Under the pieces are notes generated by a model, which worked only from the letters and a program-made list of their open reading frames with translations, did not search any database and was not told where the DNA came from. Below, piece after piece: positions 1-59,997 of a DNA stretch of 64,000 bases. Position 1 is the stretch's first letter, and every line of letters starts with the position of its first letter. The stretch comes from Thermoplasmatota archaeon (GTDB lineage: Archaea > Thermoplasmatota > Penumbrarchaeia > Penumbrarchaeales > Penumbrarchaeaceae). Position numbers and translations under genes: made by a program. The stretch lies in assembly GCA_029762535.1 (NCBI GenBank), contig JARVGK010000003.1, positions 32,001 through 96,000 of the forward strand, written 5' to 3'.

Positions 1-50
1 CCCAAGGGTTCGAATCCAAATGTACAATGCTCCCGAAAATAATTAGAAAG

Positions 51-124
51 CGGACCCATGGGGATTCGAACCCCACCCCCCGGCTCCGAAGGCCGGAAGA
101 CTATCCTGGCTATCCTATGGGCCC
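51..124 (-). tRNA. tRNA-Arg(TCG)
   Basis: Reverse complement folds as a cloverleaf: acceptor GGGCCCA/TGGGTCC, anticodon arm CCGGC-CTTCGGA-GCCGG, T-loop TTCGAAT; CCA not encoded. Confidence 0.93.
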
Positions 125-680
125 GATGATTGGGTTATGGCCCTGTAGGGTCATAACCCTATTTTAATCGATTCATAAGCGGATCCCCAGGATATGTGTT
201 ACTCCCGAAGGGATCGGGGGTGGGGAAAAAAGTCTCTGTGGTTGGATTCTTTCGGGGGAAGAATCCACCGGAAGACTATCCTGGCTATCCTATGGGCCCA
301 TATTGGTTTGTAGTCCGAATGTAATGAGGACTATAAACCTTTATATGGTGATCCTTAGGCTGGATAGGCGGATCAAGCCATATTCGGGGTGGGGGAAAAG
401 CCTCTGTACGGAGGCCGGATCGGGGATCCGGCCTGAAGACTATCCTGGCTATCCTATGGGTCCATGAACTATTGGATGGCCAAAGGCCGGCCAATAGTTC
501 TATTTTTCGGACCCATAGACGATGGGGGATAGGCGGATCTAGCCGAGTTCGGGGTGGGGGAAAGAGTCTGTGTACGGAGGCCGGATCGGGGATCCGGCCT
601 GAAGACTATCCTGGCTATCCTATGGGCCCGATGATTGGGTTATGGCCCGTAGGGATATAACCCAATTTCAATCAATTCAT
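125..680. repeat. tRNA-Arg-derived tandem array upstream of the tRNA (3 diverged units, periods 175/164/166 bp)
   Basis: gaagactatcctggctatcctatggg(c/t)cc (tRNA nt 1-29) recurs at 96, 271, 435 and 601; spacers are hairpin-rich. Confidence 0.9.
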
Positions 681-1003
681 CTACCGCTTATACGGTACCA
701 TGCGGGAAGCCCGATGTACCTGTAATGGTCCTCGATCTGCCTGGAATATATGGAGGCATAGAAGCGGTTGAAATCGGCGACATGAAGCAGTCCCTTCTTC
801 GTGGGAACGACCTTGTAGGACCTCTCGTCCCTATCGACCGATATGTAGCCCTCACCCTCCAGATGCGAGAGCACCCTCTCCGTCATGTTGTGGTTTGACC
901 TTATATGATGCATTATCTCCGATTTGGAAAGCCCGTCGATCCCTCCAGAAAGAAGCTGTTCGATCTTCGATCCGAGATCTTTCTGCTGGAGATCGATGCC
1001 CAT
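677..1003 (-). CDS. Winged helix-turn-helix protein, putative transcriptional regulator
   Basis: LSKSEIMHHIRSNHNMTERVLSHLEGEGYI...YKVVPTKKG wHTH pattern; ATG at 1003 preferred over the GTG at 1081. Confidence 0.65.
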   Translation of the reverse strand: MGIDLQQKDLGSKIEQLLSGGIDGLSKSEIMHHIRSNHNMTERVLSHLEGEGYISVDRDERSYKVVPTKKGLLHVADFNRFYASIYSRQIEDHYRYIGLPAWYRISGR

Positions 1004-9761: not shown

Positions 9762-12455
9762 ATGAGATCGCTCTTATTCCTCATAACGCCCCTGCTCATC
9801 GTCCCGATCGTTCTTTTCGTTGATATATCCTGGGCGGATCCGGTCCAGGGGACCGAGTGGGACGCGCCGTTCCCCGACGATCTCAGGTTCTCCGATCCTG
9901 GCCCCATCGATTACGAAAGAATGATCGATGTTCTCTATCTGGATGACGGCACATATTTCTGGTTACACATCGTGACGGAGCAGGTCCCCGGTTACGACCT
10001 GAACAGTGTGATCCTCCTGTTAGAGATGTACTCCGAGGCCGACGAGCTCCTATCGAGCGATCCGATAACGCTTTTCGAGACATCTTTCGATCCATACGAT
10101 CGGATAGTGTATCCGGCGGAGTACGGAGACGACGGGATCGCATTCCTCCTCGAACTGAAACAGAACTATTATGGCAACAGCGGGGCCGATGAATTCTATA
10201 TGGTGGTCCTCGATAACGCGACATCCTCCGGGCCTCTGTCGGCGGAGTCGAAATACCTGGACATAGAGGACTTCGATCATTTCAGGTTCAGGTTCGAGGA
10301 GGAGTCCCTCCCGTATATGGCATACCTTGTCCTCTATGGAGAGGATATGGTCTTCGTCCAGCCCTATTCCTCGGAGGAGGGGTTCTTGGACCCTATCGAG
10401 TTCGAGGAAGGGGTTCGTCAGGCCTCGGACATACTCGACCACGGTGAGGGTATCATATTCATACATCAGGAGGCCCGTGGGACGATCACTTTAAGATCAT
10501 ACTATCCCAACGGGACCAAATTTGGGTCCGTGGATGTGCCGGCATATCCGGAGGGGATCGGTCTGGACAACACCTTCGACTCGTGGATGCACGAAGGGAA
10601 TATCCACCTTATGGTCTGGCGGGACGAATTGCGTGGGTCCTACAAGCACCTGGACCATCTGGTGATCTCCATCGACGGGGAGATAATAGATAAGGATCTG
10701 GACATCCTCCCATGGGAGAGCCCGTTCCTTTTGACCAACCATCTCTTCGGCCTCGAGGGGGACATCTTCCTGCTCGGGACCAACTCGTACTCGCTCTACA
10801 GGTTCGAGAAGGACATGACCCCCATCGTCAGATATCCTATCGGATCCCACCCGGACGATCCCGGCCTCTGGGAGATATTCCTGTTGGATCATTTCAAGGG
10901 AGAGGTCCATCTTCTCATCCGGGGCGAGGATCATTTCGGGATCTCCTCCTACAGGGAGGGCGAATTGCCCATGTTCGGCTCCTTCAGTATCGAAGAGGAT
11001 ACGGTCATGGACAACGAGACCTATCCCCAGGATTGCAGACTGATCGTTGGGAACGGCAGCACCCTGGTCCTCGAGGGGATCGATCTGATGATCGAGTACT
11101 ACGACTTCCCTCTGATCGTAACGGATGGCGGATCACTGGAGATGAAAGGATGCACGAACCGGACGGGCGAGAATTGGAACGTCGATAACGATGGCCGACT
11201 GACCATGGTCGATTGCACCATGAGGATCGATATCACCGGCACGGGTTCGATATTACTTGAAGGGAACGGGAACGTCTTCCCCACCCGATACTATCTGGAC
11301 TGGGAATGTTCCTCGCTGACGTTGACCGGAATTGTCGCCTCCGGATCGGATATTCCCACCCATCAGATCTTCTACAGTATCCAGAGGAACGACTATACCG
11401 TCCCCATGTTGAACATCATCGATTGCGAACTCAGGGATCTCGCATCGAACACGCGCAAAGGATTGGAAATGAGGGCCGACTCGATCCTCGTCAGGGACTG
11501 CACCTTCGAGAACGTCAGCTGCTTCTTCAACGACGGCGACCTGAAGATCGAAGGGTCTACGTTCCAGGATTGCGATCTCTCCGGAGTGGATCCCGCGGAT
11601 ACGGTCCATGTTATCGATTCGACCTTCAGGGATTGCAGGAACGTCTATTGGCTGTTCGGCACGATGCATTCCGAGATCGAAGGGTCGTCCTTCATGAACT
11701 GCTCCCGGATCATCGAGACCTCGTCCTATGCCGATAATCGGATAGAGGTCTCGAAGTGCCGGTTCGTCGAATGCGAGAACGTCACCGAATACGAGGGATC
11801 GGACCTCATAACGATCGAGGATTCCCTGTTCCTGAACTGCCGGAGGACGATCGGCATCGATGCCGATCTGGATGAACACATAGGGCTCAGGATAGCGAAC
11901 TGCACCTTCGACGGTAAACAACGCCAGGTCTATTTCAAGGGCGATCCGCTGGACGATGTCGACCCGTTCGACGATCCCGAGGAACCGTTCGGTTACAACA
12001 CCCCGAGGATGGTTGACCTGGCCTACAATACCTGGAACGCCTCCCATCCGGAGCAGGTGGCCTCCGTCGTTTCCTTCGGTATCAAGTTCCTTCCGTTCAA
12101 TGACCTCGAGGGGAACCTGATATCGACCGAAGATGACGACATGGACCGGATGGACGACGATTGGGAGGAAAAGAACGGCCTTGACCCGGAGCATTATTTC
12201 GACAGGTTCCTCGATCCCGACAACGACGGCTACGACAATCTCGAGGAGTTCAGGGCGGGCTCGGACCCCATGGATGGCGGGGATCATCCCTACGAGATGA
12301 CTCCCGAACTGAAGTTATGGATACTTATATGCGCGTGCAGCGTCCTGGTGGCCGCCGCCCTTTTCATCGCGTTCCCACTGCAGGCATTCGTCAGGGGGAT
12401 CCGGCCTCCCCCTAAAAACCATAAGGATGAGAAGATAAAGGAGGGGGCGCATTGA
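9762..12455 (+). CDS. Surface protein: right-handed beta-helix, DxDxDG Ca-binding module, C-terminal TM
   Basis: Signal peptide; repeated (I/V)xDCTFxN units; DDDWEEKNGLDP...DPDNDGYDNLEEF; TM plus basic tail. Confidence 0.7.
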   Translation: MRSLLFLITPLLIVPIVLFVDISWADPVQGTEWDAPFPDDLRFSDPGPIDYERMIDVLYLDDGTYFWLHIVTEQVPGYDLNSVILLLEMYSEADELLSSDPITLFETSFDPYDRIVYPAEYGDDGIAFLLELKQNYYGNSGADEFYMVVLDNATSSGPLSAESKYLDIEDFDHFRFRFEEESLPYMAYLVLYGEDMVFVQPYSSEEGFLDPIEFEEGVRQASDILDHGEGIIFIHQEARGTITLRSYYPNGTKFGSVDVPAYPEGIGLDNTFDSWMHEGNIHLMVWRDELRGSYKHLDHLVISIDGEIIDKDLDILPWESPFLLTNHLFGLEGDIFLLGTNSYSLYRFEKDMTPIVRYPIGSHPDDPGLWEIFLLDHFKGEVHLLIRGEDHFGISSYREGELPMFGSFSIEEDTVMDNETYPQDCRLIVGNGSTLVLEGIDLMIEYYDFPLIVTDGGSLEMKGCTNRTGENWNVDNDGRLTMVDCTMRIDITGTGSILLEGNGNVFPTRYYLDWECSSLTLTGIVASGSDIPTHQIFYSIQRNDYTVPMLNIIDCELRDLASNTRKGLEMRADSILVRDCTFENVSCFFNDGDLKIEGSTFQDCDLSGVDPADTVHVIDSTFRDCRNVYWLFGTMHSEIEGSSFMNCSRIIETSSYADNRIEVSKCRFVECENVTEYEGSDLITIEDSLFLNCRRTIGIDADLDEHIGLRIANCTFDGKQRQVYFKGDPLDDVDPFDDPEEPFGYNTPRMVDLAYNTWNASHPEQVASVVSFGIKFLPFNDLEGNLISTEDDDMDRMDDDWEEKNGLDPEHYFDRFLDPDNDGYDNLEEFRAGSDPMDGGDHPYEMTPELKLWILICACSVLVAAALFIAFPLQAFVRGIRPPPKNHKDEKIKEGAH

Positions 12456-13396
12456 AGTTCGAGATCTCGATCAAGGGCGTCGACCTGCCCTCCTCCCTCT
12501 CGGCGGGTCTGAAGATACCGGAATTCCGGGTCGGGTCCGGAGGGACCGACTTCGTGAACATACTCAATAATGGGAACCGGGGTGAGTTCAAGGGATATTT
12601 ACTTGGGGATAGGAAGCCCGGAAGCGGTGACATTTGGTCATCTCCCGATCGAAACACAGTCAAGACCTCCCTGATCGGTCCGGAACGAGGTTATCTACCC
12701 CATCAGACCGTGAAGGGATATCTGGACCACATTATCGAGATATCCGGGATCGATCCTTCGGTCGCTCGCAGGCGGGATATACTCGATGAGCTGGAATTGG
12801 GCGCCATCATGGACTGCGAGGTCTCCGGGCTGGGCTCCGGACAGAGGATTTTAGTGGACCTTGCAAGAGGGGCGGTCCTCGATCCCGATCTGTTCATCAT
12901 CGATCTGATGGAAATGGAAGAGGCGGCGGGGAACCAGGAGAAGGTGGTATCTTTCATCAGGTGGTTCCTGAAAGGTAGCGAGAAGGGCGCGGTCATCTTC
13001 GTTAAGGAACCTCCAGAAGAGGTCCACGAGGGAGAGCGCTTCTATTCGGTCATGGACAACACCCTCTCCGAAAGGGACCTAACCCAGATGCCGGTAGGGA
13101 ACTTGTATCCGTTCAGGGTGAGGTTCGTCCTGGATGACATGGTCCAGGCCGCCCAGATCATAAGAGGGTTCCCCCATGTCAGGGTGGAGCCCTCGTTCAG
13201 GCCTATAATGGCAAAGGAAGAGGGCACGGACGATACCGGACTTTCCGAGGAACCGTTCTCAATACATTACGGCAGGGAGATGTTCTTCGGACTGAAGCGT
13301 TACGACATCCTGCCCCAGATCAACAAGGAGCTCATCTCCGCCGGGATCAAGGTGTACGAGGTATCATTGATGAAGAAGGGAGGTGAGCGCCAGTGA
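12452..13396 (+). CDS. Degenerate ABC-ATPase-like protein
   Basis: KPGSGDI, LGSGQRILVDLARGAVLDPDLFIID; no intact Walker A. Confidence 0.55.
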   Translation: MKFEISIKGVDLPSSLSAGLKIPEFRVGSGGTDFVNILNNGNRGEFKGYLLGDRKPGSGDIWSSPDRNTVKTSLIGPERGYLPHQTVKGYLDHIIEISGIDPSVARRRDILDELELGAIMDCEVSGLGSGQRILVDLARGAVLDPDLFIIDLMEMEEAAGNQEKVVSFIRWFLKGSEKGAVIFVKEPPEEVHEGERFYSVMDNTLSERDLTQMPVGNLYPFRVRFVLDDMVQAAQIIRGFPHVRVEPSFRPIMAKEEGTDDTGLSEEPFSIHYGREMFFGLKRYDILPQINKELISAGIKVYEVSLMKKGGERQ

Positions 13397-14322
13397 AAAG
13401 CGTCACATGTGCGATGCTCAAGGAGAACGTGAAGTGCTCCTCCATCGGGATCGCGAGGATATTCTCCGTGAAGGCGCTTGTGATGCTCGTGATAGTACTG
13501 TCGACGGTCCTGCCCATAATCGTGATTTCGGAGGACGATCAGGATCCCGGGGGTGATAACCTTTACAAATACCGACATCCGAGTGATGCCACTACGAACA
13601 GGCGGGGGGAGGTCGTGGATTGGGAGGGGGTCGACGAGATACCAGAGAATGAGGGATCGGACGATGCCGCTTCAGGGACAGCCCTGGCGACGATCGTCCT
13701 CGCTATTTCGATTTTGAATATCGCCATCTGTCATGTCTATTTATTCTCCAAGAACATAGGTAAGGGGAGGCTCACTATCCTTCAACAACTGGGTGTTCCC
13801 GATGGTCAGGTCTTCAGAGGTAATGTCCTCAGCGTAGCCGTCCTGTTCTCGGTACTATCCGTATTGGACATGGTCTTCTTATCGATTATCTATGCCATGG
13901 TCTCCTCCCTTTTTCTTGAGGTGATCGTCGTTGGTACCATCTCTTCGACGGTCGTACTGTCCTTGTATATAGTCGGCATTACACACCCGACCTCCGTCAA
14001 ACTGTTCAAGAGGAGGTTCATGGTCCCGCTTCTCAACATATCGATCATTATCTTTTTGGGCATCCTGCTATCGAGGACCATCCTGGACCCCGTGTTCGAG
14101 ATGGTAGGCCTTGATATCGAAATAATCAAAGCGATCCTCACCGGGTTCAGCCCGGTCCACTTCATAGGAGCCGTCGCCGGTTGGATGATTGGAGGGGAGG
14201 CGATCCGGGTCACTGACCTCCTGTGGACCGTTCCAGTGGCGATATTGATCTGCATGGGGATCGTGCTTACAGGCAGGATCAAGGCAGGGGAGCTGAGGTC
14301 CCCTTTCATGTCCCTACATTGA
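13393..14322 (+). CDS. Multi-pass membrane protein, ABC-2 permease-like
   Basis: About 6 TM helices; FSPVHF motif before the last helix; follows the ABC-like gene. Confidence 0.5.
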   Translation: MKSVTCAMLKENVKCSSIGIARIFSVKALVMLVIVLSTVLPIIVISEDDQDPGGDNLYKYRHPSDATTNRRGEVVDWEGVDEIPENEGSDDAASGTALATIVLAISILNIAICHVYLFSKNIGKGRLTILQQLGVPDGQVFRGNVLSVAVLFSVLSVLDMVFLSIIYAMVSSLFLEVIVVGTISSTVVLSLYIVGITHPTSVKLFKRRFMVPLLNISIIIFLGILLSRTILDPVFEMVGLDIEIIKAILTGFSPVHFIGAVAGWMIGGEAIRVTDLLWTVPVAILICMGIVLTGRIKAGELRSPFMSLH

Positions 14323-14376
14323 GGTTCGACCGATCTTTAACATATCTATAGGGTGCTCTGGTACAATCATCGATCG

Positions 14377-15672
14377 CTATGGGTCCACTCTCTCGATGAT
14401 AGCCGCGAAGAAACCTGAACGATCATCTCCTGGCATCGGATGGAAATATGTTCCTCTGAACAGATCCTTTGGAAGATATGGAACCATGCCATCCGCTTGG
14501 ACCGGGTGGAACCCTTCGTTCTCCTTGAGGAAACGTTCCACTATCGATCCGTTCTCCGACTTGTCCATTGAACACGTCGAATACACGAGCCTCCCGCCGG
14601 GCTTCACGAGGTCGGAATAGGTCTTCAGTATATCGTACTGGACCATCGGGAAACGTTCCATGTCCTCCTGTTTCAGGTGGATCTTTATGTCGGGGTTGCG
14701 CCTCATCGTCCCCAGTCCTGAGCATGGGGCATCGACGAGGACGAGATCCGCCCATTCCCTGTACGGATCGAGCGATGAAGGATCCTTGACGTGGAGCCTC
14801 TGATAGTTCCAGATCTGAGCCCTTCTTCCCCTCTGTCTAAGGCGCTGGAGGCTCCTCTCGTTGGTGTCCATTGATATTAGCATCCCCCTGTTCTTCATCA
14901 AGGCGCTCAGGGCGAGGGTCTTGCCACCGTTCCCGGCGCAGGCGTCCACGACCTTCAGGCCTTCGATCCCTGCAAGGGCGATCCTGCAGGCGATCTGGGA
15001 GGAGATGTCCTGCACTTCGATCAGACCCTGCCTGTACTCCTCGAGATCGTCGATCCTGGTCCCGTCCGGGAGAAGGAACGCATCGGGATCCAGGTCCGTC
15101 ATCATCGGGGAGTTCACGACCTTCGATATGGACCGCATGACCTTATCCCTCGTTGAGAGCAGGGTATTGGTCCTGATGCCGATATATCTCGGATGTAAGA
15201 GGGAATCGGCCAGAGCATCGTATGCCTTCTCCTTACCGAGGGAATTGATAAGGGTGCTTGATATGAATTCCGGGACCGATGACGATGCAATATTATCAGA
15301 TACATCTTCCCTTCTATCTATCGATGTGATCGCCGGTAATATTTTCGATCTCTCGACCGTTGCCTTGATGGCCTTGCGCCTCTCCCAGAAAAGGTCATGG
15401 TCCTTGGGCATCTCCTTGAGGAACACCATCGATGCCGCCATGGCAAGCTCATTTGGATCGGCGCTGCCTATCTCTTTAGTGAAAATATGGTGCCATCTAA
15501 GGTAAGAATAGCACGATATGGCCACCCTTGACCTGCTGCGATCGTCCAGATTAGAGTATTTAAGGATCCGGTGCAGCGATCTGTTGGATTTCTCCCCGCT
15601 CAATACCGATGTGATGAAATCCTTCAGGTGAGGATGGAGCTTGAATGACCTTTTTCCGGAACGGGGTATCAT
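14377..15672 (-). CDS. RsmB/NOP2/Fmu family RNA m5C methyltransferase
   Basis: VQDISSQ, DACAGNGGKT, DAPCSGLG and YSTCS motifs. Confidence 0.92.
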   Translation of the reverse strand: MIPRSGKRSFKLHPHLKDFITSVLSGEKSNRSLHRILKYSNLDDRSRSRVAISCYSYLRWHHIFTKEIGSADPNELAMAASMVFLKEMPKDHDLFWERRKAIKATVERSKILPAITSIDRREDVSDNIASSSVPEFISSTLINSLGKEKAYDALADSLLHPRYIGIRTNTLLSTRDKVMRSISKVVNSPMMTDLDPDAFLLPDGTRIDDLEEYRQGLIEVQDISSQIACRIALAGIEGLKVVDACAGNGGKTLALSALMKNRGMLISMDTNERSLQRLRQRGRRAQIWNYQRLHVKDPSSLDPYREWADLVLVDAPCSGLGTMRRNPDIKIHLKQEDMERFPMVQYDILKTYSDLVKPGGRLVYSTCSMDKSENGSIVERFLKENEGFHPVQADGMVPYLPKDLFRGTYFHPMPGDDRSGFFAAIIERVDP

Positions 15673-15848
15673 GTTAGCGATCCCCCTAACCCCCGAGGTG
15701 ATAGATGAAACTTTTCACCCCCCGAAGGGGGATCTCCTCCACCTACGGATGCTTACAACCTAAAGATCCCCTCCGCGATCCGGGATCCTACTCCTGGAAG
15801 GGGGGGATCCCTCCAAAAAATCAATGAGGTTATGATCTTGTGGTCGAT

Positions 15849-15883
15849 AAAAAAAAAGGGGGGAGATCGAACGATCTCCCCCC
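15849..15883 (-). terminator. Intrinsic terminator of the DUF4397 gene
   Basis: 12-bp stem ggggggagatcg-aa-cgatctcccccc with a T9 run on the minus strand. Confidence 0.7.
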
Positions 15884-15907
15884 AAGGGTTTTTCTGATTA
15901 TATACGA

Positions 15908-16657
15908 TCATCTGTCCTTCACGAGAAGTGCTCCGAGGGAGGGTTCGCCCGTCCCTGGCGAGACCAATCCCGTGGCGAAGACCGTGTACGAGGTCCTCTT
16001 CATCAGGCTCACATCGTCCACGCTCAGAACAACTGTCTCGGTCCCGGCGAGCCTGACCTCGAGATCGTAGGTCCCCGCCTTGACCGACAGATACCTCTCC
16101 ACATCGCCGAAGCTGACATCGGGGAACAGTACTGGGCCGTCCTTGACAGCGATATCCACCGCGGGAGCATCCGGAGATGCGTGGACGAACCTCACCCAGG
16201 ACCTGAATATGGGCCGGACCGGTCTGAGGTCCTCTATGACCAAAGGTTCGATCTCGGAGAGTTTACCCACGGCTACGATGGTGTAGTCCCTGACGGGTTT
16301 GAGAACGACATCCGCATTTATGACGATGGGTGACGTCTGTCCGGTTGGGACCACCTGTATGTTGTATGACGAACCTCCCTTGTTGAAGGGGACGGTCAGA
16401 TATGGTGTGTACTCGCCGAATGCCAGGTTTGACACCGCAAGGTTTCCGTTGACCCATATGTCCACCGCAGGGGCGTCAGGTGAGAGATGCACGGCTCTGA
16501 CCCTGGCCGAAGCCCAGGATGATCCCCCGAAGCCTCTGCCCCCTCCGTTGTTTTCCTTGTCCATTCCTCTTCCTTCCACCTGGCCTACCATTATCATGGA
16601 GCCCAGGAGGACCATGAGGGTGATCCCCATGGCGGCCGTTATTGTTCCTTTCCTCAT
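15908..16657 (-). CDS. Secreted DUF4397 (AlgF-like) domain protein
   Basis: Two VR(A/F)VH(L/A)SPDAPAVDI repeats; signal peptide. Confidence 0.85.
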   Translation of the reverse strand: MRKGTITAAMGITLMVLLGSMIMVGQVEGRGMDKENNGGGRGFGGSSWASARVRAVHLSPDAPAVDIWVNGNLAVSNLAFGEYTPYLTVPFNKGGSSYNIQVVPTGQTSPIVINADVVLKPVRDYTIVAVGKLSEIEPLVIEDLRPVRPIFRSWVRFVHASPDAPAVDIAVKDGPVLFPDVSFGDVERYLSVKAGTYDLEVRLAGTETVVLSVDDVSLMKRTSYTVFATGLVSPGTGEPSLGALLVKDR

Positions 16658-16991
16658 TTTTTTACCTCCAATGGCTTGGTGAAAGATGAGAAAGTATTCT
16701 TACATATTATAAACATAACTTGACATATTAGGTTTTTCATGTCCAGATACGGGACGAATGAAGGGATCCCTTCTTCTGGATAGGTCGATGTTCATATCGA
16801 GTACGGAATAGGGGATCGTTGACGGATGTTCTTGGACTGTTAATAGCAGGGGTGAGAGAAAGGATCCCGAACGGGGATCCCGCGATCATGGTCCTTGACA
16901 AGCTCTCAAGGTCCAATTTCAGGATGTCGATCCCCTTTTATCTCCGCACCAAGGAGGAGATCTTAAAAGTAAAGGATGATTAGACAATACT

Positions 16992-17369
16992 GTCACTGGT
17001 GGGAACCTTCGTAACGTCAACATGCCGACAACTACAACAGTTCCAAAGGGGGGAAAATGCCATCGGGAATTTTTTCGAAGTTGAACCCTGGGTTCAAAGA
17101 CGCCAGTGGCGACAATGAGTAAAAAAATAAACGGGAAGCAACAAATCGCTCGATCATCAGGCTTCCCGGTCCTGGAAAAACCAAGCCGGGGAATTGGTCA
17201 CTGGTAGTTTTTCCCGACTTTTTCATCCTACAACGATCACAATATGCCAAAGGATGAAAAAGAGCCACTGGTGGGAACCCGCAGAAACCTCGAAGAGGGT
17301 TCGAGGGCAGGGGAAATGTCATCAGACATTTTCCCGATGTTGAACCCAAGGTTCAATCACACCAGTGGC
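16992..17369. repeat. Two palindromic tRNA-Thr 3'-end elements (16992-17110 and 17262-17369) separated by stacked hairpins
   Basis: cactggtgggaa-[two hairpins]-ttgaacc..ggttcaa..ccagtggc-gacaa(t/a)gagtaaa occurs twice. Confidence 0.85.
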
Positions 17370-17389
17370 GACAAAGAGTAAAGAATAAA

Positions 17390-17464
17390 TGGAGCCACTG
17401 GTGGGAATTGAACCCACGACCTACTCCTTACCAAGGAGTCGCTATACCGCTAAGCCACAGTGGC
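17390..17464 (-). tRNA. tRNA-Thr(GGT)
   Basis: GCCACTG/CAGTGGC acceptor, ACTCC-TTGGTAA-GGAGT anticodon arm, TTCAATT T-loop, encoded CCA. Confidence 0.95.
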
Positions 17465-17520
17465 GATGTTTTGGAGGGTGGTTAAAAACGGACCTTTACT
17501 TAAACATTGCTGAGTTATCC

Positions 17521-17720
17521 GAGCCACTGGTGGGAACCTTTGGAACGTCAACATGCCGACAACTACAACAGTTCCAAAGGCGGGGAAAATGCCCTCAGGC
17601 ATTTTTCCAACGTTGAACCCACGACCTACTCCTTACCAAGGCCCTGGGAAAACCTTGGGTTTTCCCGGTCATGACCCCTTTCGGGCTCATGAAGTCGCTA
17701 TATCGCTAAGCCACAGTGGC
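17521..17720 (-). pseudogene. Full-length tRNA-Thr(GGT) copy interrupted by 76-nt and 51-nt double-hairpin insertions
   Basis: Removing 17537-17612 and 17642-17692 restores the tRNA except for a D-loop G>A and the lost CCA; 31 bp of upstream flank is also duplicated. Confidence 0.85.
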
Positions 17721-17778
17721 GATGTTTTGGAGGGTGGTTAAAAACGGACCTATACTAAAACAATATTGAATAAGAGAA

Positions 17779-17849
17779 GTCACTGGTGGGAACCTTTGGA
17801 ACTTCAACATGCCGACAACTACAACAGTTCCAAAGGCGGGGAAAAAGCC
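17779..17849. repeat. Truncated tRNA-Thr 3'-end element with the same hairpin insert
   Basis: cactggtgggaacctttggaac...gttccaaaggcggggaaaa is near-identical to 17525-17589. Confidence 0.85.
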
Positions 17850-17920
17850 TGTTGCTCTTTCTAAGATTTATCATCATCAATAGTGACAATATAATTATCG
17901 TATCAGATCATCCCGCCTTC

Positions 17921-18562
17921 ATGGATCTGGCGATATTGGTGGATTTTGACAATACCGTCACATCCCAAGACGCCTCCTATGCGATCCTCGACCGCTTCGC
18001 CGAAGGCGACTGGAGGCGGATCGAGGAGGAGGCTTTCCGCGGCAAATATACCATCCTCGAAGCCCTCGAGATCCAATCCCGAATGGTCCGGGGGGATCCC
18101 AAAGCCATCGACGAACATGTACTCTCCATTGTATCCCTCCGCGAGGGTTTCCTGGAATTCGCCAATTGGTGCAGGGAGAACTCCATTCATCTCGAGATCT
18201 GCTCCGACGGCTTCGGGCATACGATCCCCTTGATACTGAAGAGGGAGGGTTGTGAGCACATACCCTACACATCCAACCATACCTGGTTCGAGGGGGATCG
18301 AATGCGAATAGCCTTCGATCATAAAAGGGAGGGATGCCCCGTCAACGCAAACTGCAAATGCTCGCATCTCGAGCGTCTGGGGTCACTATACGGTGATGTG
18401 ATCTACGTAGGGGACGGCGCGACGGACGCGTGCGTGGCGGGCAAGGCCTCTCATCTGCTAGCAAGGGATTGGCTGGCGGCATACTGCAATGAAAAAGGCA
18501 TTCAATACACCGAATGGAAAGAATGGACCGACGTCATAGAATACGCATCAACCCTGCTTTGA
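17921..18562 (+). CDS. MtnX-like HAD-IB phosphatase
   Basis: DFDNTVT, CSDGFG, CPVNANCK, YVGDGATD. Confidence 0.85.
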   Translation: MDLAILVDFDNTVTSQDASYAILDRFAEGDWRRIEEEAFRGKYTILEALEIQSRMVRGDPKAIDEHVLSIVSLREGFLEFANWCRENSIHLEICSDGFGHTIPLILKREGCEHIPYTSNHTWFEGDRMRIAFDHKREGCPVNANCKCSHLERLGSLYGDVIYVGDGATDACVAGKASHLLARDWLAAYCNEKGIQYTEWKEWTDVIEYASTLL

Positions 18563-19654
18563 CCAATGCGTGCCGAGGGGTTCTCTCTTCCTCGTGTCGA
18601 AGGCCTTCTCCTCCTCACCTAGCGGAATGTCAATTCTCCTTCGCAGCACATCGGAGAGATGGGCGGCCTGCATGACCTCGACGCTCTCCCTCCCCTGAAC
18701 GCTGGTCACCGCTATGTCCTCATCTCGCGAGAGTACACCGATGACGTTGTTCAGGACCTTATCGTGGTTCGACATCGATCCTTGATACCCACCCTTGTAC
18801 GTGTTCGCGGGCGCGCCGAGAGGTATCTCAGGCTTTTCGACCCCCTCGACGCTCCAGTCCGAGATCTCGTTGAGGTACTTGCCACCGATCTTGATGCACC
18901 CCTTCTCGCCCAGCACCATCAGGGATCCCTCCATGTTCCTGCCGTAGGCGGCGGTGGTGTAGCTTAGGACCCCGGCGCATCCATTTTTGAAATCTATCCT
19001 GACATGGCCAAGGTCCTCTACCTCAATATAAGGATGGGCAACGTTGTCCATCCAGGCGTTCACTGATAGGGCCTCCCCTCCGATCCACAGTATCAGATCG
19101 ATGAAATGGCTGCACTGGGTGAACAATGCCCCTCCGTCAAGGTCGAGGGTACCCCGCCATTCGCCCTCTCTGAAATAGTTCATGTTCCGATTCCAGAGAA
19201 CCGTCGAGGATATCATATAGATCCTGCCCAGCTTCCCGCTAACGACCATGTCCCGCAGGATCGACACCGGTGGATTGTATCTGTTCTGCTTCACCAAGAA
19301 GTACTTCTTTCCCGTCTCCTTCTCGGTCCGTATTATAGAGTCGGCCTCCTTCAAGGTGAGGGCCATGGGCTTCTCGGAGAGCACATGCTTTCCGGCCCTC
19401 ATGGATGCTATTGCCTGTGAGGCATGCAGTCCAGAAGGCGTGCATAGGTTCACCACATCGATATCATCCCTGGACAGAACGTCATCGAAAGAATATACGC
19501 TCTCGCATCCCGCGATCGTGGCCCCTTCATCCGCCCGTTCGGGAACGATGTCGCACACCCCTGTTATCCTCGCGCCTTCCAGGCCTTTGAGGAAGGATAC
19601 GTGCCTCGAGCCAATATTGCCGTAGCCAACTACCGCGAACCTTACATCTTCCAT
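18548..19654 (-). CDS. Gfo/Idh/MocA oxidoreductase (WlbA/WbpB-like nucleotide-sugar dehydrogenase)
   Basis: GYGNIG, EKPMAL, QNRYNPP, WRGT..DGGA...SHFIDL. Confidence 0.85.
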   Translation of the reverse strand: MEDVRFAVVGYGNIGSRHVSFLKGLEGARITGVCDIVPERADEGATIAGCESVYSFDDVLSRDDIDVVNLCTPSGLHASQAIASMRAGKHVLSEKPMALTLKEADSIIRTEKETGKKYFLVKQNRYNPPVSILRDMVVSGKLGRIYMISSTVLWNRNMNYFREGEWRGTLDLDGGALFTQCSHFIDLILWIGGEALSVNAWMDNVAHPYIEVEDLGHVRIDFKNGCAGVLSYTTAAYGRNMEGSLMVLGEKGCIKIGGKYLNEISDWSVEGVEKPEIPLGAPANTYKGGYQGSMSNHDKVLNNVIGVLSRDEDIAVTSVQGRESVEVMQAAHLSDVLRRRIDIPLGEEEKAFDTRKREPLGTHWSKQG

Positions 19655-19690
19655 TCTAACGCGCTCCTATCGATCGTTCCCGGGTGGGGG

Positions 19691-21082
19691 TCATGACTTG
19701 TAGTAGGTCTTGATGTACTTATCATCTATTCTCTTGAGCTCGTCCTTGGGGATGATCCTCAAGAGCTTCCAGGCTATACCGAGCGTGTCTTCGATGGTTC
19801 GGTCCTCGTCGTTCCTCTGAGTGATAAAATGTTTCTCGAACTCCTCAGAGAAGCGCAGATATGCCCTATCCCTGTCGGTGAGAGCCTCCTCCCCGACCAC
19901 GGCGACGAGGTCCCTGAGGTTCACTCCCTCGGCGTAGGCGGCATAGAGCTGATTGGACACCTGGTCGTGATCGCCCCTGGTCCTGCCTTCTCCGATCCCC
20001 TGCTTCATCAGCCTGGAAAGGCATGGTAGTACATCGACGGGAGGGGATATGGACTTGCGGTGCAGGTCCCTGGATAGAACGATCTGTCCCTCAGTTATGT
20101 AACCCGTCAGGTCAGGTATCGGATGCGTTATGTCGTCATCTGGCATCGTCAATATGGGTATCTGGGTTATGGAACCCTTCCTGTTCTGTATCCTGCCCGC
20201 CCTTTCGTATATCTGGGACAGGTCGGTGTACATATATCCCGGGTAACCCCTTCTGCCCGGGACCTCCTCCCTCGCCGCCGCGATCTCCCTCAGAGCCTCG
20301 CAGTAGTTGGTCATGTCGGTGAGTATGACGAGTATATGCATGTCCTTGGAATATGCCAGGTATTCCGCCGTGGTGAGGGCCATCCTGGGGATGATGATCC
20401 TCTCGATCGCGGGATCGTCCGCTAGGTTAAGGAACAGGACGGACCTCTCCAGAGCCCCGCTCAGCTCGAAGGAACGTTTGAAGTAGTTCGCCTCCTCGGC
20501 AGTTATCCCCATTGCGCAGAATATAACGGCGAACTCGCCCGATCCTCCGGGGACCTTGGCCTGTCTAGCGATCTGTGCGGCGAGGTCATTGTGAGGAAGG
20601 CCCGATGCGGAAAAGATGGGGAGCTTCTGCCCTCTGACGAGCGTGTTCATTCCGTCTATGGTGGATATTCCGGTCTGGATGAACTCCCGAGGGTATTCCC
20701 TGGCAGTTGGATTGATGGGCTCCCCGTTGATGTCCTTTCGTAGCTCGGGAATGATCTCCGGGCCGTCATCGATGGGTCTGCCGATACCGTCGAAGACCCG
20801 GCCCAGCATGTCCTGGGACAGTGGGATCTTCATCGTCTCCCCGGTGAACCTCACCGAGGTCGTCTTGGTGTCTATACCCTTGGTTCCCTCGAAGACCTGT
20901 ATTATCGCCTTGTCGGTATGGGCCTCGAGGACCTGTCCGAGCCTCATCTTCCCATCCGGGGCCCTGACCTGTACCACCTCGCCGTAGGATGCGCCTTTTA
21001 CCCCTTCGACGACCATCAGCGGACCCGATACCTCCTGGACGGTCGAATACTCAACATCCTTGCCCTCGACCAGGGTTGACAT
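19691..21082 (-). CDS. atpB: A/V-type ATP synthase subunit B
   Basis: [44 protein letters not shown]. Confidence 0.97.
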
Positions 21083-25813: not shown

Positions 25814-26137
25814 GTGTCTCAAATGAAAGCTTCTTCGATGGACAGGCTGCTCCAGGCCGAGCGCTTGGCCCAGCAGCGGGTCGATGGTGCCCGGACCGAG
25901 GCCTCGCAAATGGTCAATAGGGCCCGGGATGATATGAAGGAACATTCGGAGAAGTTGATCAAAGACGAAATTAGGTCGAAAAAAGCCGAGCTGGCAGCGG
26001 TCAAGGAGCGGGCCGAGAAAGAGTCCGAAAGACTGAGAAAGGAAGGAGCGATCTACGCCGAGGAGATAACGAAAAAGGGACGTAAGCTGGTCCCGGATGC
26101 GGTTGAAGCGGTAGTCGGCGAGTACCTTGATGGATGA
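25814..26137 (+). CDS. atpH: A-type ATP synthase subunit H (peripheral stalk)
   Basis: Charged coiled coil (LLQAERLAQQRVDGARTEA); first gene of the operon. Confidence 0.75.
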   Translation: MSQMKASSMDRLLQAERLAQQRVDGARTEASQMVNRARDDMKEHSEKLIKDEIRSKKAELAAVKERAEKESERLRKEGAIYAEEITKKGRKLVPDAVEAVVGEYLDG

Positions 26138-57248: not shown

Positions 57249-57335
57249 TGGTGCAGGGGAAGGGATTCGAACCCTCGAACCACTAAGGACCAGACCCTGA
57301 ATCTGGCGCCGTTGGCCAGGCTTGGCTACCCCTGC
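57249..57335 (-). tRNA. tRNA-Leu(CAG)
   Basis: GCAGGGG/CCCCTGC acceptor, CCAGA-TTCAGGG-TCTGG anticodon arm, long variable arm, encoded CCA. Confidence 0.95.
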
Positions 57336-57657
57336 ATGTTTTTGCGTTTGTGCCTGGGTAGCGTATGGCCAACGGCGCCCCGAGACGCAGTCTCGGTGAT
57401 GGCGCCTCGGATGGGTGGCATGTGCCACCCGTCCCCTTCCGCGAACGCTTTGGTGGTGAGACCAAAGGGTTCTTGGGCAGGCTTGGCTACCCCTGCATGT
57501 TTTTGCGTTTGTGCCTGGGTAGCGTATGGCCAACGGCGCCCCGAGACGCAGTCTCGGTGATGGCGCCTCGGATGGGTGGCATGTGCCACCCGTCCCCTTC
57601 CGCGAACGCTTTGGTGGTGAGACCAAAGGGTTCTTGGCCAGGCTTGGCTACCCCTGC
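57336..57657. repeat. Two near-identical 161-bp tRNA-Leu-derived tandem units
   Basis: 57336-57496 and 57497-57657 differ at one position by eye; each ends in tRNA nt 1-24 (ttgg(c/g)caggcttggctacccctgc). Confidence 0.92.
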
Positions 57658-57732
57658 GATATCTGGGCATCGTTGATACGATGTCGCCTTTAACGACCGT
57701 TCGATAATAAAGATATCGATGAGAAGGTCTCA

Positions 57733-59997
57733 TCAGGTGATGACGAGATCCTGGGACGATGAAACGAACAGTGTATCTCGAACTTTGTCGAACCTCGTGA
57801 AAATCTCAGGACCCATGTTCTCGATCTGCTCCTGAGTGAATCCAACTATGGTGAGATCCGCTTTTTTCGAGATCCTGTTGATCTTATCCCTCATCTCCTC
57901 ATCGCTCTCATATACCTTGGACTTTACCGATCTCATCGAGATCGGCAGCCTCCCCTCGGATACCAAAGCCTTCACCCTCTTGGCAAGGGCTGCGCGATCC
58001 CCTTTGGGAAATAGAGTGAATATCGAGATCTTCGTCCCTTTCCATTCATCATGCTCCATAATAATATAGGACAGAAGTATCATGAGATTGACGTTCCTGA
58101 AATCCTCCTTGGTTATCCATAGATGTATATTCTGTCTATGTCCGAAGTTATGCTCCGTGGATCTCAACACGAGCTTGTTGTAGTTCACTATGGATGCCAT
58201 CCTCAATCCCGTTATGATGTCGGTGAGGTCATCTTGTCTATTCTTGTGGAACTCGAACATTATGGTGTTATTGTCCATCCCTGAGATACCGGAGATCTGC
58301 ACGGTCTGGGCAACTGCCGTAAGCGTAGAAGGAGAAACCAAGGTGGTTACCGAATAGTTCGCCTTTGAGCTTCTCATCTCCTCTATTAGTATTCTCTCGT
58401 CCTTTTTCGAGGATTTGACGGTCTCCGGGTCCAATTTTCCCCTCGTCATATGTACCAGGGTCCCGAAACCGTAATGATGCGAGATCCACCTAAGCATGTC
58501 CTTGGGTCCCTTCCGCTCGATGGCATTGGTGGAAATGGCGATTATCGAGGGCCTCCAGTTGAACTTGTCGGGTTTTGACATGGTCCTCTGGAGGGTGATC
58601 TTCATCAACCTGCTGAGCTGGAACATCACACCCTGGAATATTATGGCGAACGACCGCGACCTTTTATGCCTCATACCTAATAGATAATAGATCCCTCCCA
58701 TTATCAGAAGGGTAAGGAACGCGTAACCCGCGCTCAACTGGAACATGATACCGAATGAGAATACGGCTCCAACAAGGGAGATATACCACTTGGTCTTGAA
58801 TGTTGGACGATAGGAGGGATTACCCGCAAAATGTTCGAGGAATGAAATGAGACAGACCGAGCCGTATGCGATCAGGAAGAACATGGTGATGATCTGGGCC
58901 ACCATGTTGAGGTTGCCCATGAAGATGAACACGATCGCGATGATCGCAGATAAAAGTGTTCCGTTGATAGGTTCGTTCTCCTTTCCCTTGCCATATCTTA
59001 TGAAATCCCCTATTCTCTTGGAGTAGAACACCTTGTCCTTGCCCAGGGCCTGGAGCGTCCTTGGTCCGATCAGAGCGAACCCAACTGCTGATGATATCGT
59101 GGCACCGAAAAGGCCTGCGAGTATAACGTATCCCAGATGCAGGTTCCCGATCCCGTTGGCCATATCGAACATTATCAATGTGTTCGATGCGAGGACATCA
59201 ACCGGGGCGCTCAGATAGAGCTTGACCATCATTGCCAGATAGACGAAGAACCCGATCACTATGGCGAAAATGATACCCTTTGGGATCGATTTCCCCGGGT
59301 CCTTGAGGTCTCCCGAAAGACCTACTCCTGCCGTCATGCCTGTGAACGCCGGGAATGCAATTGCGAAGACGGGTAGGAACCCCAAAGAGTTCTGTGATGT
59401 AGCGGTTATCCCGGACGGGGCGCCGGGTAGGGGTGGGCTTATCATAAAGATGATTATTGAAGCGACCATCAGTGTGAATACCACCCAAAGGAGTTTGATA
59501 CCGATCTTGGCTCCCTTGGTGAGAATGATGCTGAATAGTATGAGTGCCAAGGGAATGCTGATGAGCCGGGGATCGTAAGTTATTGAGATCGGCAGAGGAT
59601 CGAGCAGATATCTCTGGATCGGTTCTTTCAACGCCTCGAACCCTTCGGCAAAACCGATGATGTAGAAAGCCACGGATATGGACTGGGCCGCATACAGCAT
59701 GACGCCGATCGTAGCGCCAATCCTCGGTCCAAAGGATCGGCTGATGATGTAATACTCGCCACCGCCGCCAACCCTTAGGTTCGTGGCGATCTCGGATATG
59801 GCTACCCCGGTGGGAAATGTTACCATGTGCCCTAATAGAACTATCGCGATGGCCCCTATGAATCCGACGTTGCCGACCGTGAAACCAAAACGCAGGAACA
59901 TGACGGCGCCTAGTATGGCGCAGATCGAGGTGAGGAAGACGGGGGCGGTACCGAAACCGTATCCGCCCTTGATAATGTTCCTTATCCTTCTGACCAT
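57733..59997 (-). CDS. Cation-chloride cotransporter (SLC12/CCC-like, APC superfamily)
   Basis: ILGAVMFLR, GGGEYYIISRSFG, FPAFTG..AG..LSGDLKDP, NWRPSI; soluble C-terminal domain. Confidence 0.9.
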   Translation of the reverse strand: MVRRIRNIIKGGYGFGTAPVFLTSICAILGAVMFLRFGFTVGNVGFIGAIAIVLLGHMVTFPTGVAISEIATNLRVGGGGEYYIISRSFGPRIGATIGVMLYAAQSISVAFYIIGFAEGFEALKEPIQRYLLDPLPISITYDPRLISIPLALILFSIILTKGAKIGIKLLWVVFTLMVASIIIFMISPPLPGAPSGITATSQNSLGFLPVFAIAFPAFTGMTAGVGLSGDLKDPGKSIPKGIIFAIVIGFFVYLAMMVKLYLSAPVDVLASNTLIMFDMANGIGNLHLGYVILAGLFGATISSAVGFALIGPRTLQALGKDKVFYSKRIGDFIRYGKGKENEPINGTLLSAIIAIVFIFMGNLNMVAQIITMFFLIAYGSVCLISFLEHFAGNPSYRPTFKTKWYISLVGAVFSFGIMFQLSAGYAFLTLLIMGGIYYLLGMRHKRSRSFAIIFQGVMFQLSRLMKITLQRTMSKPDKFNWRPSIIAISTNAIERKGPKDMLRWISHHYGFGTLVHMTRGKLDPETVKSSKKDERILIEEMRSSKANYSVTTLVSPSTLTAVAQTVQISGISGMDNNTIMFEFHKNRQDDLTDIITGLRMASIVNYNKLVLRSTEHNFGHRQNIHLWITKEDFRNVNLMILLSYIIMEHDEWKGTKISIFTLFPKGDRAALAKRVKALVSEGRLPISMRSVKSKVYESDEEMRDKINRISKKADLTIVGFTQEQIENMGPEIFTRFDKVRDTLFVSSSQDLVIT

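What the first reader, a model, noticed from the sequence alone, without database searches (positions are those of the whole stretch)
16992..17849. The same T-loop site carries a double-hairpin insert in four tRNA-Thr-derived copies, with compensatory changes
Seen: copies starting at 16992, 17262, 17521 and 17779 all break at gtgggaa|ttgaaccc (tRNA 58/59; the last copy is truncated). The second hairpin covaries: ggaaaatgcc-ctca-ggcatttttcc (about 17584-17608) versus gggaaatgtc-atca-gacattttccc (about 17311-17335). In the 17262 copy the first hairpin is a different sequence (cctcgaa..ttcgagg). The 17132-17262 spacer is three more consecutive stems. Inference: structure rather than sequence is maintained, as expected for a functional RNA or ssDNA element, or for hairpin-driven repair.
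Basis: seen in the sequence. Interest (0 to 1): 0.7.

Follow-up and report, generated by a model that had tools for sequence, protein, structure and literature searches.

The report
Hairpin-pair inserts in spare tRNA copies
The four "interrupted tRNA-Thr copies" are dead or partial duplicates of a threonine tRNA gene. Each carries a copy of a small gene-less two-hairpin DNA module. In this sediment archaeon (Thermoplasmatota) that module sits beside most tRNA genes, always fused to a spare copy of the tRNA's own end, and I found no published description of such a system.

Summary
Four tRNA-Thr(GGU)-derived copies on the minus strand are broken exactly between T-loop positions 58 and 59 by a two-hairpin ("dumbbell") insert. 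One copy is a full paralog with a second dumbbell at 29/30.

They are not tRNA introns. There is no bulge-helix-bulge motif, the T-loop insert is structured on the strand antisense to the tRNA, and the paralogs carry disabling substitutions.

A covariance model finds 34 dumbbells in this genome, all joined to tRNA-derived sequence. It finds up to 4 copies in each of 11 of 23 relatives of the same family, and none in the other families searched. Across 60 distinct copies 96.5% of cells pair (74% when shuffled), 17 of 21 pairs show double changes, and a G·T wobble is kept on one strand.

Behind 20 tRNA genes lie 35 units, each bounded by 14-25-nt direct repeats of the local tRNA 3' end, without terminal inverted repeats. 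Congeneric genomes differ by presence or absence of units at the syntenic locus.

Best reading (about 0.5): a REP-like, gene-less insertion module that moves as folded single-stranded DNA into tRNA-gene copies; the enzyme is unknown. The scan noted the same phenomenon before, in this genome and in other archaea.

The parts
17390..17464 (-). Intact tRNA-Thr(GGU) gene, CCA encoded, with its own promoter-like upstream block
   Evidence: ARAGORN; Rfam tRNA match at 71.6 bits
17522..17720 (-). Upstream paralog of tRNA-Thr(GGU) with the same duplicated promoter block. Its exon pieces are 17693-17720, 17613-17641 and 17522-17536. A D-loop G18-to-A change and the missing CCA make it a likely pseudogene.
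   Evidence: Comparison with the intact gene. The same architecture occurs in G010 and G020.
17642..17692 (-). 51-nt dumbbell insert at tRNA 29/30, V-W order on the tRNA-sense strand
   Evidence: Clean, unambiguous borders; fold z -7.7; matches model R1 at 25.3 bits on the minus strand. The same site is occupied in 6 of 24 family genomes.
17537..17612 (+). 76-nt dumbbell insert at tRNA 58/59 of the paralog, V-W order and G.T wobble on the + strand (antisense to the tRNA)
   Evidence: Best R1 hit at 85.8 bits; fold z -5.1
17778..17849 (+). Truncated third copy: antisense of t59-73, then the V hairpin and half of W. The rest of the tRNA copy is missing.
   Evidence: R1 hit at 52.4 bits
17264..17369 (-). 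Fold-back mini-copy: antisense acceptor/T-arm, a 3-nt turn, then a sense T-arm half split at 58/59 by a 62-nt variant dumbbell (17278-17339), then sense t59-73. It folds into a four-way junction.
   Evidence: fold z -7.6; R1 hit at 28.2 bits
17132..17261 (-). Three-hairpin X-Y-Z module, also present directly behind tRNA-Thr(UGU) and tRNA-Thr(CGU) on other contigs
   Evidence: fold z -3.3
16992..17110 (-). Second fold-back mini-copy, with a decayed 75-nt dumbbell (17006-17080) at 58/59
   Evidence: R1 hit at 47.5 bits. It folds no better than shuffles, z +0.6 and -0.9.

Best explanation
The inserts are copies of a gene-less palindromic module I call the V-W dumbbell. It consists of a V hairpin (10-13 bp stem, loop of about 24 nt), 2-4 nt, a W hairpin of the form GGAAAAT..ATTTTTC, and a 4-nt tail. 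The module behaves like a REP/BIME- or attC-like mobile DNA element.

I propose that it propagates as a folded single strand and is joined, in a fixed orientation, to a few defined positions of tRNA-gene DNA:
- T-loop 54/55 on the sense strand
- T-loop 58/59 or 59/60 on the antisense strand
- anticodon stem 29/30

It survives only where the interrupted tRNA segment is redundant. Every copy therefore sits in a spare 3' end, a spare 5' end or a whole duplicated gene, while one intact gene remains.

At this locus the tRNA-Thr(GGU) gene with its promoter was tandemly multiplied (period 258-270 nt). The two upstream copies carry dumbbells: one is now a pseudogene with two inserts in opposite orientation, the other is truncated. 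Two fold-back mini-copies with dumbbells lie downstream.

Shown here: precise scarless borders, family membership, strand-specific structure, presence/absence between congeners, and pseudogene status. Inferred: the single-stranded DNA intermediate, the enzyme (none identified), and whether insertion itself creates the target-end duplicate.
For: 1. Clean insertion without duplicated bases at 58/59 and 29/30 of an otherwise complete tRNA copy.
2. Model R1 finds 34 copies in this genome, all flanked by tRNA-derived sequence: 16 on the sense strand at 54/55 and 18 on the antisense strand at 58/59-59/60. Relatives hold at most 4 copies and only within the family, so this lineage shows an expansion.
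3. Near-identical modules lie at different tRNA loci. The Arg-CCG and Arg-UCG units are 100% identical outside the V loop, and sub2 units (V-W on the strand antisense to the tRNA) are shared by Gly, Glu, Leu and Ser loci.
4. At a syntenic locus in one genus, G004 has a mini-copy but no paralog, while G010 has a paralog but no mini-copy. The 29/30 insert is present in 6 of 24 genomes spread over 6 of 7 genera.
5. Covariation: 96.5% of cells paired against 74% when shuffled, and 17 of 21 pairs with double changes. On the V-first strand G.T/T.G cells number 58 against 16 A.C/C.A, with a G.T wobble at one position in 35 of 60 copies. This strand follows the element, not the tRNA's transcription direction.
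6. The paralogs carry substitutions at G18, T55 and C72, and one dumbbell is decaying, as expected of relics.
7. W-type hairpins are a dispersed family: 47 strict copies against 0 in a shuffled genome, some in non-tRNA intergenic clusters.
Against: - No mobilising enzyme was found. The genome (93% complete) has no Y1 transposase (RAYT/TnpA), TnpB, reverse transcriptase or DDE_Tnp_1.
- No short target motif is shared by the insertion sites.
- A pure dumbbell-insertion model does not explain why every spare 3' end is broken at the T-loop, nor why antisense copies of the local T arm accompany the inserts.
- The module behind tRNA-Leu(CAA) is orthologous in two genera. Its stems and W are 90-100% conserved while its loop and trailer are 58-82% identical. 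That looks like host-level constraint rather than a neutral relic.
Confidence: 0.5

Rival explanations
1. The units are gene-less integrative cassettes moved by a site-specific (tyrosine) recombinase. Each unit carries an att site identical to the tRNA's T-loop-to-3'-end block and stacks behind the gene by accretion, as integrase-less CIME-type elements do. The dumbbell would be the recombinase's folded recognition structure, as in integron attC or CTX phage attP.
For: There are 35 units bounded by direct repeats that start in the T-loop (t55 or t59/60) and run to the tRNA's 3' end, which is the classical T-loop att geometry. The units form tandem arrays. Two tyrosine recombinases are present, one beside tRNA-Trp at a contig end. 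Folded hairpins carry a strand-specific wobble.
Against: Homologous cassettes sit behind at least 20 different tRNAs, each with the LOCAL 3' end. An att-carrying element could not supply that without first destroying the gene. No spare ends lie at kilobase distance and no integrase lies next to the arrays. The Thr paralog has clean inserts with no repeat. The 5' arrays would need duplication of the promoter plus t1-29.
Confidence: 0.17
2. The modules are host-selected structured elements of tRNA transcription units, for example bidirectional terminators or insulators, or trailer RNAs. W has an A-tract, a GC stem and a T-tract. The modules would have spread by duplication and be kept for function.
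For: W has the A-tract/stem/T-tract layout, with T5 on the V-W strand. Sense-strand modules begin about 41-47 nt after the tRNA end in four genomes. The Leu-CAA module is conserved across two genera, with stems and W 90-100% identical against 58-82% for the loop and trailer. Covariation is strong.
Against: Half of the copies are structured on the strand antisense to the tRNA. Copies lie inside pseudogenes and are sporadic among congeners. One copy is decaying. The copy number is ten-fold higher in this genome than in its relatives. No Rfam family matches.
Confidence: 0.18
3. The units were inserted by a Cas1-type integrase (casposase-like or CRISPR adaptation off-target) that makes staggered cuts at the T-loop and at the tRNA's 3' end. 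The fill-in would give the 14-25-nt local repeats.
For: Local direct repeats fall in two length classes tied to module type. As precedent in the same phylum, the Aciduliprofundum casposon uses the TpsiC-loop region of tRNA-Pro as its target and makes a 15-bp duplication, and tandem arrays are known (PMC5137440, PMC4779613).
Against: No terminal inverted repeats exceed the shuffled controls in any unit. The only Cas1 is a Cas4-Cas1 fusion inside an ordinary CRISPR locus. The clean no-repeat inserts in the Thr paralog and the 5' arrays do not fit.
Confidence: 0.06
4. The inserts are non-canonical tRNA introns of a functional second tRNA-Thr gene.
For: The positions 29/30 and 58/59 are, from my recollection of the Thermoproteales literature, known non-canonical intron sites. 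The paralog keeps a promoter copy and near-identical exons.
Against: A brute-force search finds no bulge-helix-bulge motif at the borders in three orthologous paralogs. The T-loop insert is optimised on the antisense strand. The paralogs carry changes at G18, T55 and C72. The same inserts occur in fold-back fragments that cannot make a tRNA. All three Thr isoacceptors exist intact.
Confidence: 0.03
5. The hairpins and duplications are by-products of replication or repair at palindromes (template switching, quasi-palindrome correction), with no mobility or function.
For: Inverted and direct local duplications of tRNA ends and many perfect stems are present. Four N-to-T changes are confined to one V loop.
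Against: Homologous modules occur at more than 20 loci, with their own conserved sequence and an imperfect (G.T) position kept in 35 of 60 copies. Insertion coordinates and orientation are fixed in several genera.
Confidence: 0.05

Closest known systems
REP/BIME elements (REPINs) of bacteria, mobilised by RAYT (IS200/IS605-like Y1 transposases)
   Same: Both are short gene-less imperfect palindromes. They are dispersed and clustered in intergenic DNA, occur in both orientations, keep their stems by compensatory change with a strand-specific irregularity, and have terminator-like potential.
   Different: No RAYT/Y1 transposase is present here. There is no conserved GTAG-type head. The unit is two different hairpins rather than an inverted REP pair. 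About three quarters of the copies are fused to tRNA-gene ends at fixed tRNA coordinates.
Integrative elements at the T-loop sublocation of tRNA genes and their integrase-less derivatives (attL/attR duplications; CIME-type accretion); tRNA gene fragments of PMC9897764
   Same: [quoted passage not shown] An intact gene is kept, and elements stack in tandem behind the gene.
   Different: The units are 90-170 nt and carry no gene, against 9-23 kb in PMC9897764. They occur behind some 20 tRNAs, each with the local end. Antisense copies of the end and a dumbbell lie exactly at the junction. There are 5' arrays, and no integrase is nearby.
Integron attC sites and CTX-phage attP (folded single-strand recombination sites)
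   Same: Structure is conserved while sequence varies, the signal is strand-specific, the central part is variable, and gene-poor units form arrays.
   Different: No integron integrase or attI context was identified. The repeats between units are 14-25 nt of tRNA rather than a 7-nt core. The units are not ORF cassettes.
Casposons and CRISPR spacer integration (Cas1 family)
   Same: Both target tRNA 3' ends with recognition of the TpsiC loop, produce long target duplications and form tandem arrays (PMC5137440, PMC4779613).
   Different: There are no terminal inverted repeats and no casposase. Cas1 occurs only in a CRISPR locus. The duplication here lies inside the tRNA.
Archaeal non-canonical (BHB) tRNA introns
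   Same: The positions are 29/30 and 58/59, and the inserts are short and structured.
   Different: There is no BHB motif. The T-loop insert has antisense polarity. The host copies are pseudogenes or fragments.

Membership tests
Archaeal BHB tRNA intron | Bulge-helix-bulge motif (3-nt bulges 4 bp apart) placing both splice sites at the insert borders | tested here: not met
   A brute-force hBHBh' search on the paralogs of G000, G010 and G020 found no motif at the borders and none shared among them. A hand check at 58/59 and 29/30 agrees.
Archaeal BHB tRNA intron | The host gene yields a functional tRNA after removal | tested here: not met
   Paralog exons carry G18A (G000); T55C, C72G, C25T and A27G (G010); and C25A, A27G and a changed discriminator (G020). 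Mini-copies lack the D and anticodon arms.
IS200/IS605-derived PATE / REP-RAYT | A Y1 (HUH) transposase of family PF01797 in the genome | tested here: not met
   No match to PF01797 or to the TnpB TNB domain in the 93%-complete genome, while the controls were positive.
IS200/IS605-derived PATE / REP-RAYT | Insertion 3' of one conserved 4-5-nt target, no target duplication, hairpins at both ends on one strand | tested here: inconclusive
   No duplication at the Thr sites and strand-specific hairpins are both met. The flanks differ, however (GGGT, GGAA, GGGA, GACT; or TTCRA on the other strand only for some), so there is no single target.
Casposon / mini-casposon | Terminal inverted repeats | tested here: not met
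   End-to-end alignment scores of the DR-bounded units that could be scored (30 of the 35) equal those of shuffled ends.
Casposon / mini-casposon | Cas1-solo casposase | tested here: not met
   The single Cas1 is a Cas4-Cas1-size ORF beside Cas2 and a 36-nt-repeat CRISPR array.
Casposon / mini-casposon | Fixed-length target-site duplication | tested here: inconclusive
   The direct repeats fall in two classes, about 20-21 nt and 14-18 nt, but the range is 14-25 nt and the Thr paralog inserts have none.
tRNA-targeting integrative element (tyrosine integrase) | att identity block from the T-loop or anticodon loop to the tRNA's 3' end, duplicated at both ends of the element | tested here: met
   There are 35 units with such repeats.
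tRNA-targeting integrative element (tyrosine integrase) | An integrase gene carried by, or adjacent to, the element | tested here: not met
   The units are 76-170 nt without ORFs. The only two PF00589 genes are elsewhere (C25; and C53 beside tRNA-Trp). No distant spare ends were found.
MITE | Terminal inverted repeats plus a short target-site duplication | tested here: not met
   No terminal inverted repeats were found. The borders in the Thr paralog are scarless.
Integron cassette / attC | Integron integrase with an attI site; 7-nt core sites R''/R' | not tested
   Only generic PF00589 was searched. The core-site consensus GTTRRRY does not fit the T-loop by eye. No dedicated IntI model was run.
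Any Rfam RNA family | Covariance-model match | tested here: not met
   Only the intact tRNA scores in window 14000-21000 at E<=1.

The most novel reading that the evidence does not exclude
The dumbbells and their tRNA-end copies represent an undescribed class of archaeal mobile element. It would be a gene-less cassette that recognises the hairpin-forming arms of tRNA genes as single-stranded DNA. It would insert at fixed tRNA coordinates and regenerate, or require, a copy of the interrupted gene end, using an enzyme outside the known transposase and integrase families, or a host repair or recombination enzyme. Related forms noted by this scan in DPANN, Marine Group II and other Thermoplasmata genomes would make it widespread, and it could be the DNA-level source of non-canonical tRNA intron positions.
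Probability: 0.3. Interest if true: 0.9.

Novelty: new variant of a known kind. Interest (0 to 1): 0.7.

Why it matters
If these are mobile cassettes, they show a new way in which selfish DNA exploits tRNA genes without killing them. They also give a concrete, testable candidate for how inserts reach odd tRNA positions (29/30, 54/55, 58/59) in archaea.

If they are instead host-selected terminator or insulator modules, they define an unrecognised layer of tRNA-gene architecture in a major sediment lineage.

In practice they break assemblies and create pseudo-tRNAs that annotation pipelines will miscall.

Tried and rejected
- BHB introns: rejected by exhaustive motif search.
- IS200/IS605, RAYT and TnpB: no enzyme found and no common target.
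- Reverse transcriptase and DDE_Tnp_1: absent.
- Cas1/casposon: Cas1 is part of a normal CRISPR locus, and the units have no terminal inverted repeats.
- IS110: one copy (C22), without V-W-like hairpins around it. One serine recombinase (C58) was not examined further.
- Large integrated elements bounded by distant spare tRNA ends: none found with exact 16-mers.
- V loops as captured foreign or genomic sequence: 13-mer matches elsewhere in the genome are at chance level.
- "V loop evolves faster than neutral DNA": not upheld. At the Leu-CAA ortholog the loops (58-71% identity) are about as diverged as the trailer (68-86%).
- Viral contigs: 12 pattern hits, none confirmed by the model.
- Genome contigs pattern scan: mostly chance hits. 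The only true hits were six loci in three Thermoplasmatota MAGs whose bit scores equal those of relatives G004, G010 and G015.
- Two metagenome scans: nothing found.
- Literature searches: casposon and attR-fragment papers came up, but no description of such modules.

Full report
**What is in the sequence.** The minus strand of window 16992-17849 carries one intact tRNA-Thr(GGU) gene (17390-17464, CCA encoded). Four further pieces derive from it.
- Upstream in the tRNA sense lies a complete paralog (17522-17720) with a duplicate of the roughly 45-nt promoter-like block. Relative to the intact gene it has two clean insertions: 51 nt between positions 29 and 30 (17642-17692) and 76 nt between 58 and 59 (17537-17612). 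It also has a G-to-A change at G18 and no CCA.
- Further upstream is a truncated copy (17778-17849) holding only t59-73 plus most of the same T-loop insert.
- Downstream are two fold-back "mini-copies" (17264-17369 and 16992-17110). In each, an antisense copy of the acceptor and T arm is followed after 1-3 nt by the sense T-arm half. That half is split at 58/59 by an insert of 62 or 75 nt and is followed by sense t59-73.
- The mini-copies are separated by a three-hairpin module (17132-17261).

**Are the hairpins more than chance?** As single strands the inserts fold into two adjacent hairpins far better than shuffles: z -5.1 for 17537-17612, -7.7 for 17642-17692 and -5.2 for 17278-17339. The 17262 mini-copy forms a closed four-way junction (z -7.6). 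The 16992 copy has mismatches in both hairpins and folds like random sequence (z +0.6). Within the window the claimed covariation amounts to one double change plus a moved wobble.

**Not introns.** An exhaustive search for helix-bulge-helix-bulge-helix motifs in the paralogs of this genome and of two other genera found none at the insert borders and none in common. The paralogs carry substitutions at universally conserved or paired positions: G18 here; T55 and C72 in G010; C25, A27 and the discriminator in G020. All three Thr isoacceptors exist as intact genes. The T-loop insert is optimised on the strand antisense to the tRNA (see below).

**A genome-wide architecture.**
- An exact-word scan around 40 tRNA genes found flanking copies of the gene's own sequence at 27 of them.
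- Behind 20 tRNAs lie 35 units of about 76-170 nt. Each unit is bounded by direct repeats of the local tRNA 3' end. The repeats start either at T55 (about 20-21 nt) or at position 59/60 (14-18 nt), with an overall range of 14-25 nt.
- Before several tRNAs lie arrays of promoter plus t1-24..32.
- No spare 3' end runs uninterrupted across the T-loop.
- The junction always carries the same design: a V hairpin (10-13 bp stem, roughly 24-nt loop), 2-4 nt, a W hairpin (GGAAAAT, 2-4 variable bp, a short loop, then ATTTTTC) and a 4-nt tail.

**Covariance model.** A model built from five copies (R1) finds 34 copies in this genome, and all are joined to tRNA-derived sequence.
- Sixteen have V-W on the tRNA-sense strand, with the junction at 54/55 and the spare t55-76 following.
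- Eighteen have V-W on the antisense strand, with the junction at 58/59 in the two Thr loci and at 59/60 elsewhere.
- The 29/30 insert also matches R1, in sense orientation. The paralog therefore carries two dumbbells in opposite orientation.
- Among 40 relatives the model hits only the same family (11 of 23 genomes, at most 4 copies each), again next to tRNAs. Sense-strand modules begin about 41-47 nt after the gene.
- Titles of matching public records place the family in Thermoplasmatota. Viral contigs gave no true hit.

**Covariation and strand.** On 60 distinct copies 96.5% of cells are standard pairs, against 74.2% after shuffling partners and at most 63% after sliding. Seventeen of 21 pairs show changes on both sides, in 254 such cells against 63 expected. 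The alignment is fitted to the model and the copies are related, so these figures are upper bounds, but the signal is far beyond the controls.

One W position is G.T in 35 copies, G:C in 17 and A:T in 5. Overall G.T/T.G cells number 58 and A.C/C.A cells 16 on the V-first strand. Because V-before-W fixes the strand independently of the wobble, the folded form belongs to one strand of the element. In half of the copies, including the T-loop inserts of this finding, that strand is antisense to the tRNA. This argues against a tRNA-trailer RNA and for an element-intrinsic single strand (DNA, or its own transcript).

**Turnover.**
- G004 and G010 (same genus) are syntenic around tRNA-Thr(GGU). G004 has a downstream mini-copy whose dumbbell has V stems identical to ours, but no paralog. 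G010 has a paralog with two very different dumbbells, but no mini-copy.
- The t1-29 + "TC" signature of the 29/30 insert occurs in 6 of 24 family genomes, one in each of 6 of the 7 genera.
- Units behind tRNA-Arg(CCG) and tRNA-Arg(UCG) are identical over about 130 nt but have unrelated V loops.
- Antisense-strand units with the same body lie behind Gly, Glu, Leu and Ser genes, each fused to the local 3' end.
- By contrast, the module behind tRNA-Leu(CAA) is orthologous in four genomes of two genera. Its stems, W, anti-T-arm and spare end are 90-100% identical, while its loop and trailer are 58-82% identical. At least some copies are therefore old and constrained.

**Enzymes.**
- Not found in the 93%-complete genome: Y1 transposase, TnpB, reverse transcriptase, DDE_Tnp_1.
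- Present: two tyrosine recombinases (one beside an intron-containing tRNA-Trp at a contig end), one IS110 transposase, one serine recombinase, and a Cas4-Cas1/Cas2 adaptation module in an ordinary CRISPR locus.
- None is adjacent to an array.
- The units have no terminal inverted repeats.
- W-type hairpins are themselves a dispersed family: 47 strict copies against 0 in a shuffled genome. About three quarters are tRNA-linked and the rest lie in other intergenic hairpin clusters.

**Interpretation.** The best fit is a REP/BIME- or attC-like gene-less module that is copied between tRNA loci as a folded single strand and is tolerated only in redundant tRNA segments. The Thr locus is a tandemly multiplied gene whose extra copies are occupied, and inactivated, by such modules. 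I put this at about 0.5.

What I cannot explain well is the coupling to copies, including antisense copies, of the local tRNA end. Three readings remain alive:
- gene-less integrative cassettes using the T-loop-to-3'-end block as att (0.17);
- host-selected terminator or insulator modules (0.18; W has an A-tract/stem/T-tract layout);
- Cas1-type staggered insertion (0.06).

Introns (0.03) and pure repair by-products (0.05) are unlikely.

**Prior notes of this scan** described the same modules at the tRNA-Arg locus of this genome, and similar ones in other archaeal phyla. I used them as leads only. Their "no BHB" and "scarless insert" claims were re-tested here and hold. Their wider taxonomic claims were not tested.

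**Limits.** The genomes are MAGs, with N-masked stretches inside several arrays.

Noticed in passing
window 1-700 and 57249-57900 (tRNA-Arg(UCG) 50-124; tRNA-Leu(CAG) 57249-57335): Both other tRNA genes of the window also carry self-copy arrays. Arg has two downstream sense-strand dumbbell units and three upstream t1-29 units. Leu has upstream t1-24 units with antisense D-arm pieces and a downstream antisense acceptor piece.
   Followed up: partly
L020 (G000:C15:9986-10202) vs L030 (G000:C36:31787-31863): Units behind tRNA-Arg(CCG) and tRNA-Arg(UCG) are identical except for the V inner stem and loop, which are unrelated. The two tandem Arg-CCG units differ only by four changes, all to T, in the 3' half of the V loop. 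A loop-specific replacement or mutation process is possible.
   Followed up: partly
L076 (G000:C5:52000-71999), about 11500-14800: An ordinary CRISPR-Cas locus with a Cas4-Cas1-size ORF (555 aa), Cas2 and an array of some 40 palindromic 36-nt repeats.
   Followed up: partly
L035 (G000:C53:7237-8098): tRNA-Arg(UCU) is followed by a tRNA-Trp with a roughly 125-nt intron that looks like a C/D-box guide RNA. Next comes the 3' end of a tyrosine integrase gene running off the contig, probably an unassembled integrated element. Spare tRNA-Trp-like 3' ends with dumbbells sit at the start of contig C102.
   Followed up: partly
G000:C25:48300-48850; C31:5400-5700; C6:78500-78800; C4:83700-83891 with C61:1-330; C16:300-380: These are non-tRNA intergenic clusters of W-type hairpins mixed with other repeats (GGGGCCCC-rich palindromes and a GCCCGCCCCGAGTCC motif). 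Several lie at contig ends.
   Followed up: no
window 14377-17900 vs L002 (G010) and L003 (G004): The RsmB/F-like methyltransferase gene neighbours the tRNA-Thr(GGU) locus in all three genomes. The tRNA segment is inverted relative to that gene in this genome, as might result from recombination between inverted tRNA-end copies.
   Followed up: no
G000:C21:11900-12050 and C22:6450-6760; window 17132-17261: The three-hairpin X-Y-Z module follows all three tRNA-Thr isoacceptor genes. In tRNA-Thr(UGU) it starts directly after the discriminator and is followed by an antisense copy of the tRNA end.
   Followed up: partly
G000:C21:~19500, C33:~25850-26090, C47:~81640, C69:~78550-78700: Runs of N (assembly gaps or withheld sequence) fall inside several tRNA-flank arrays, so copy numbers are lower bounds.
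   Followed up: no
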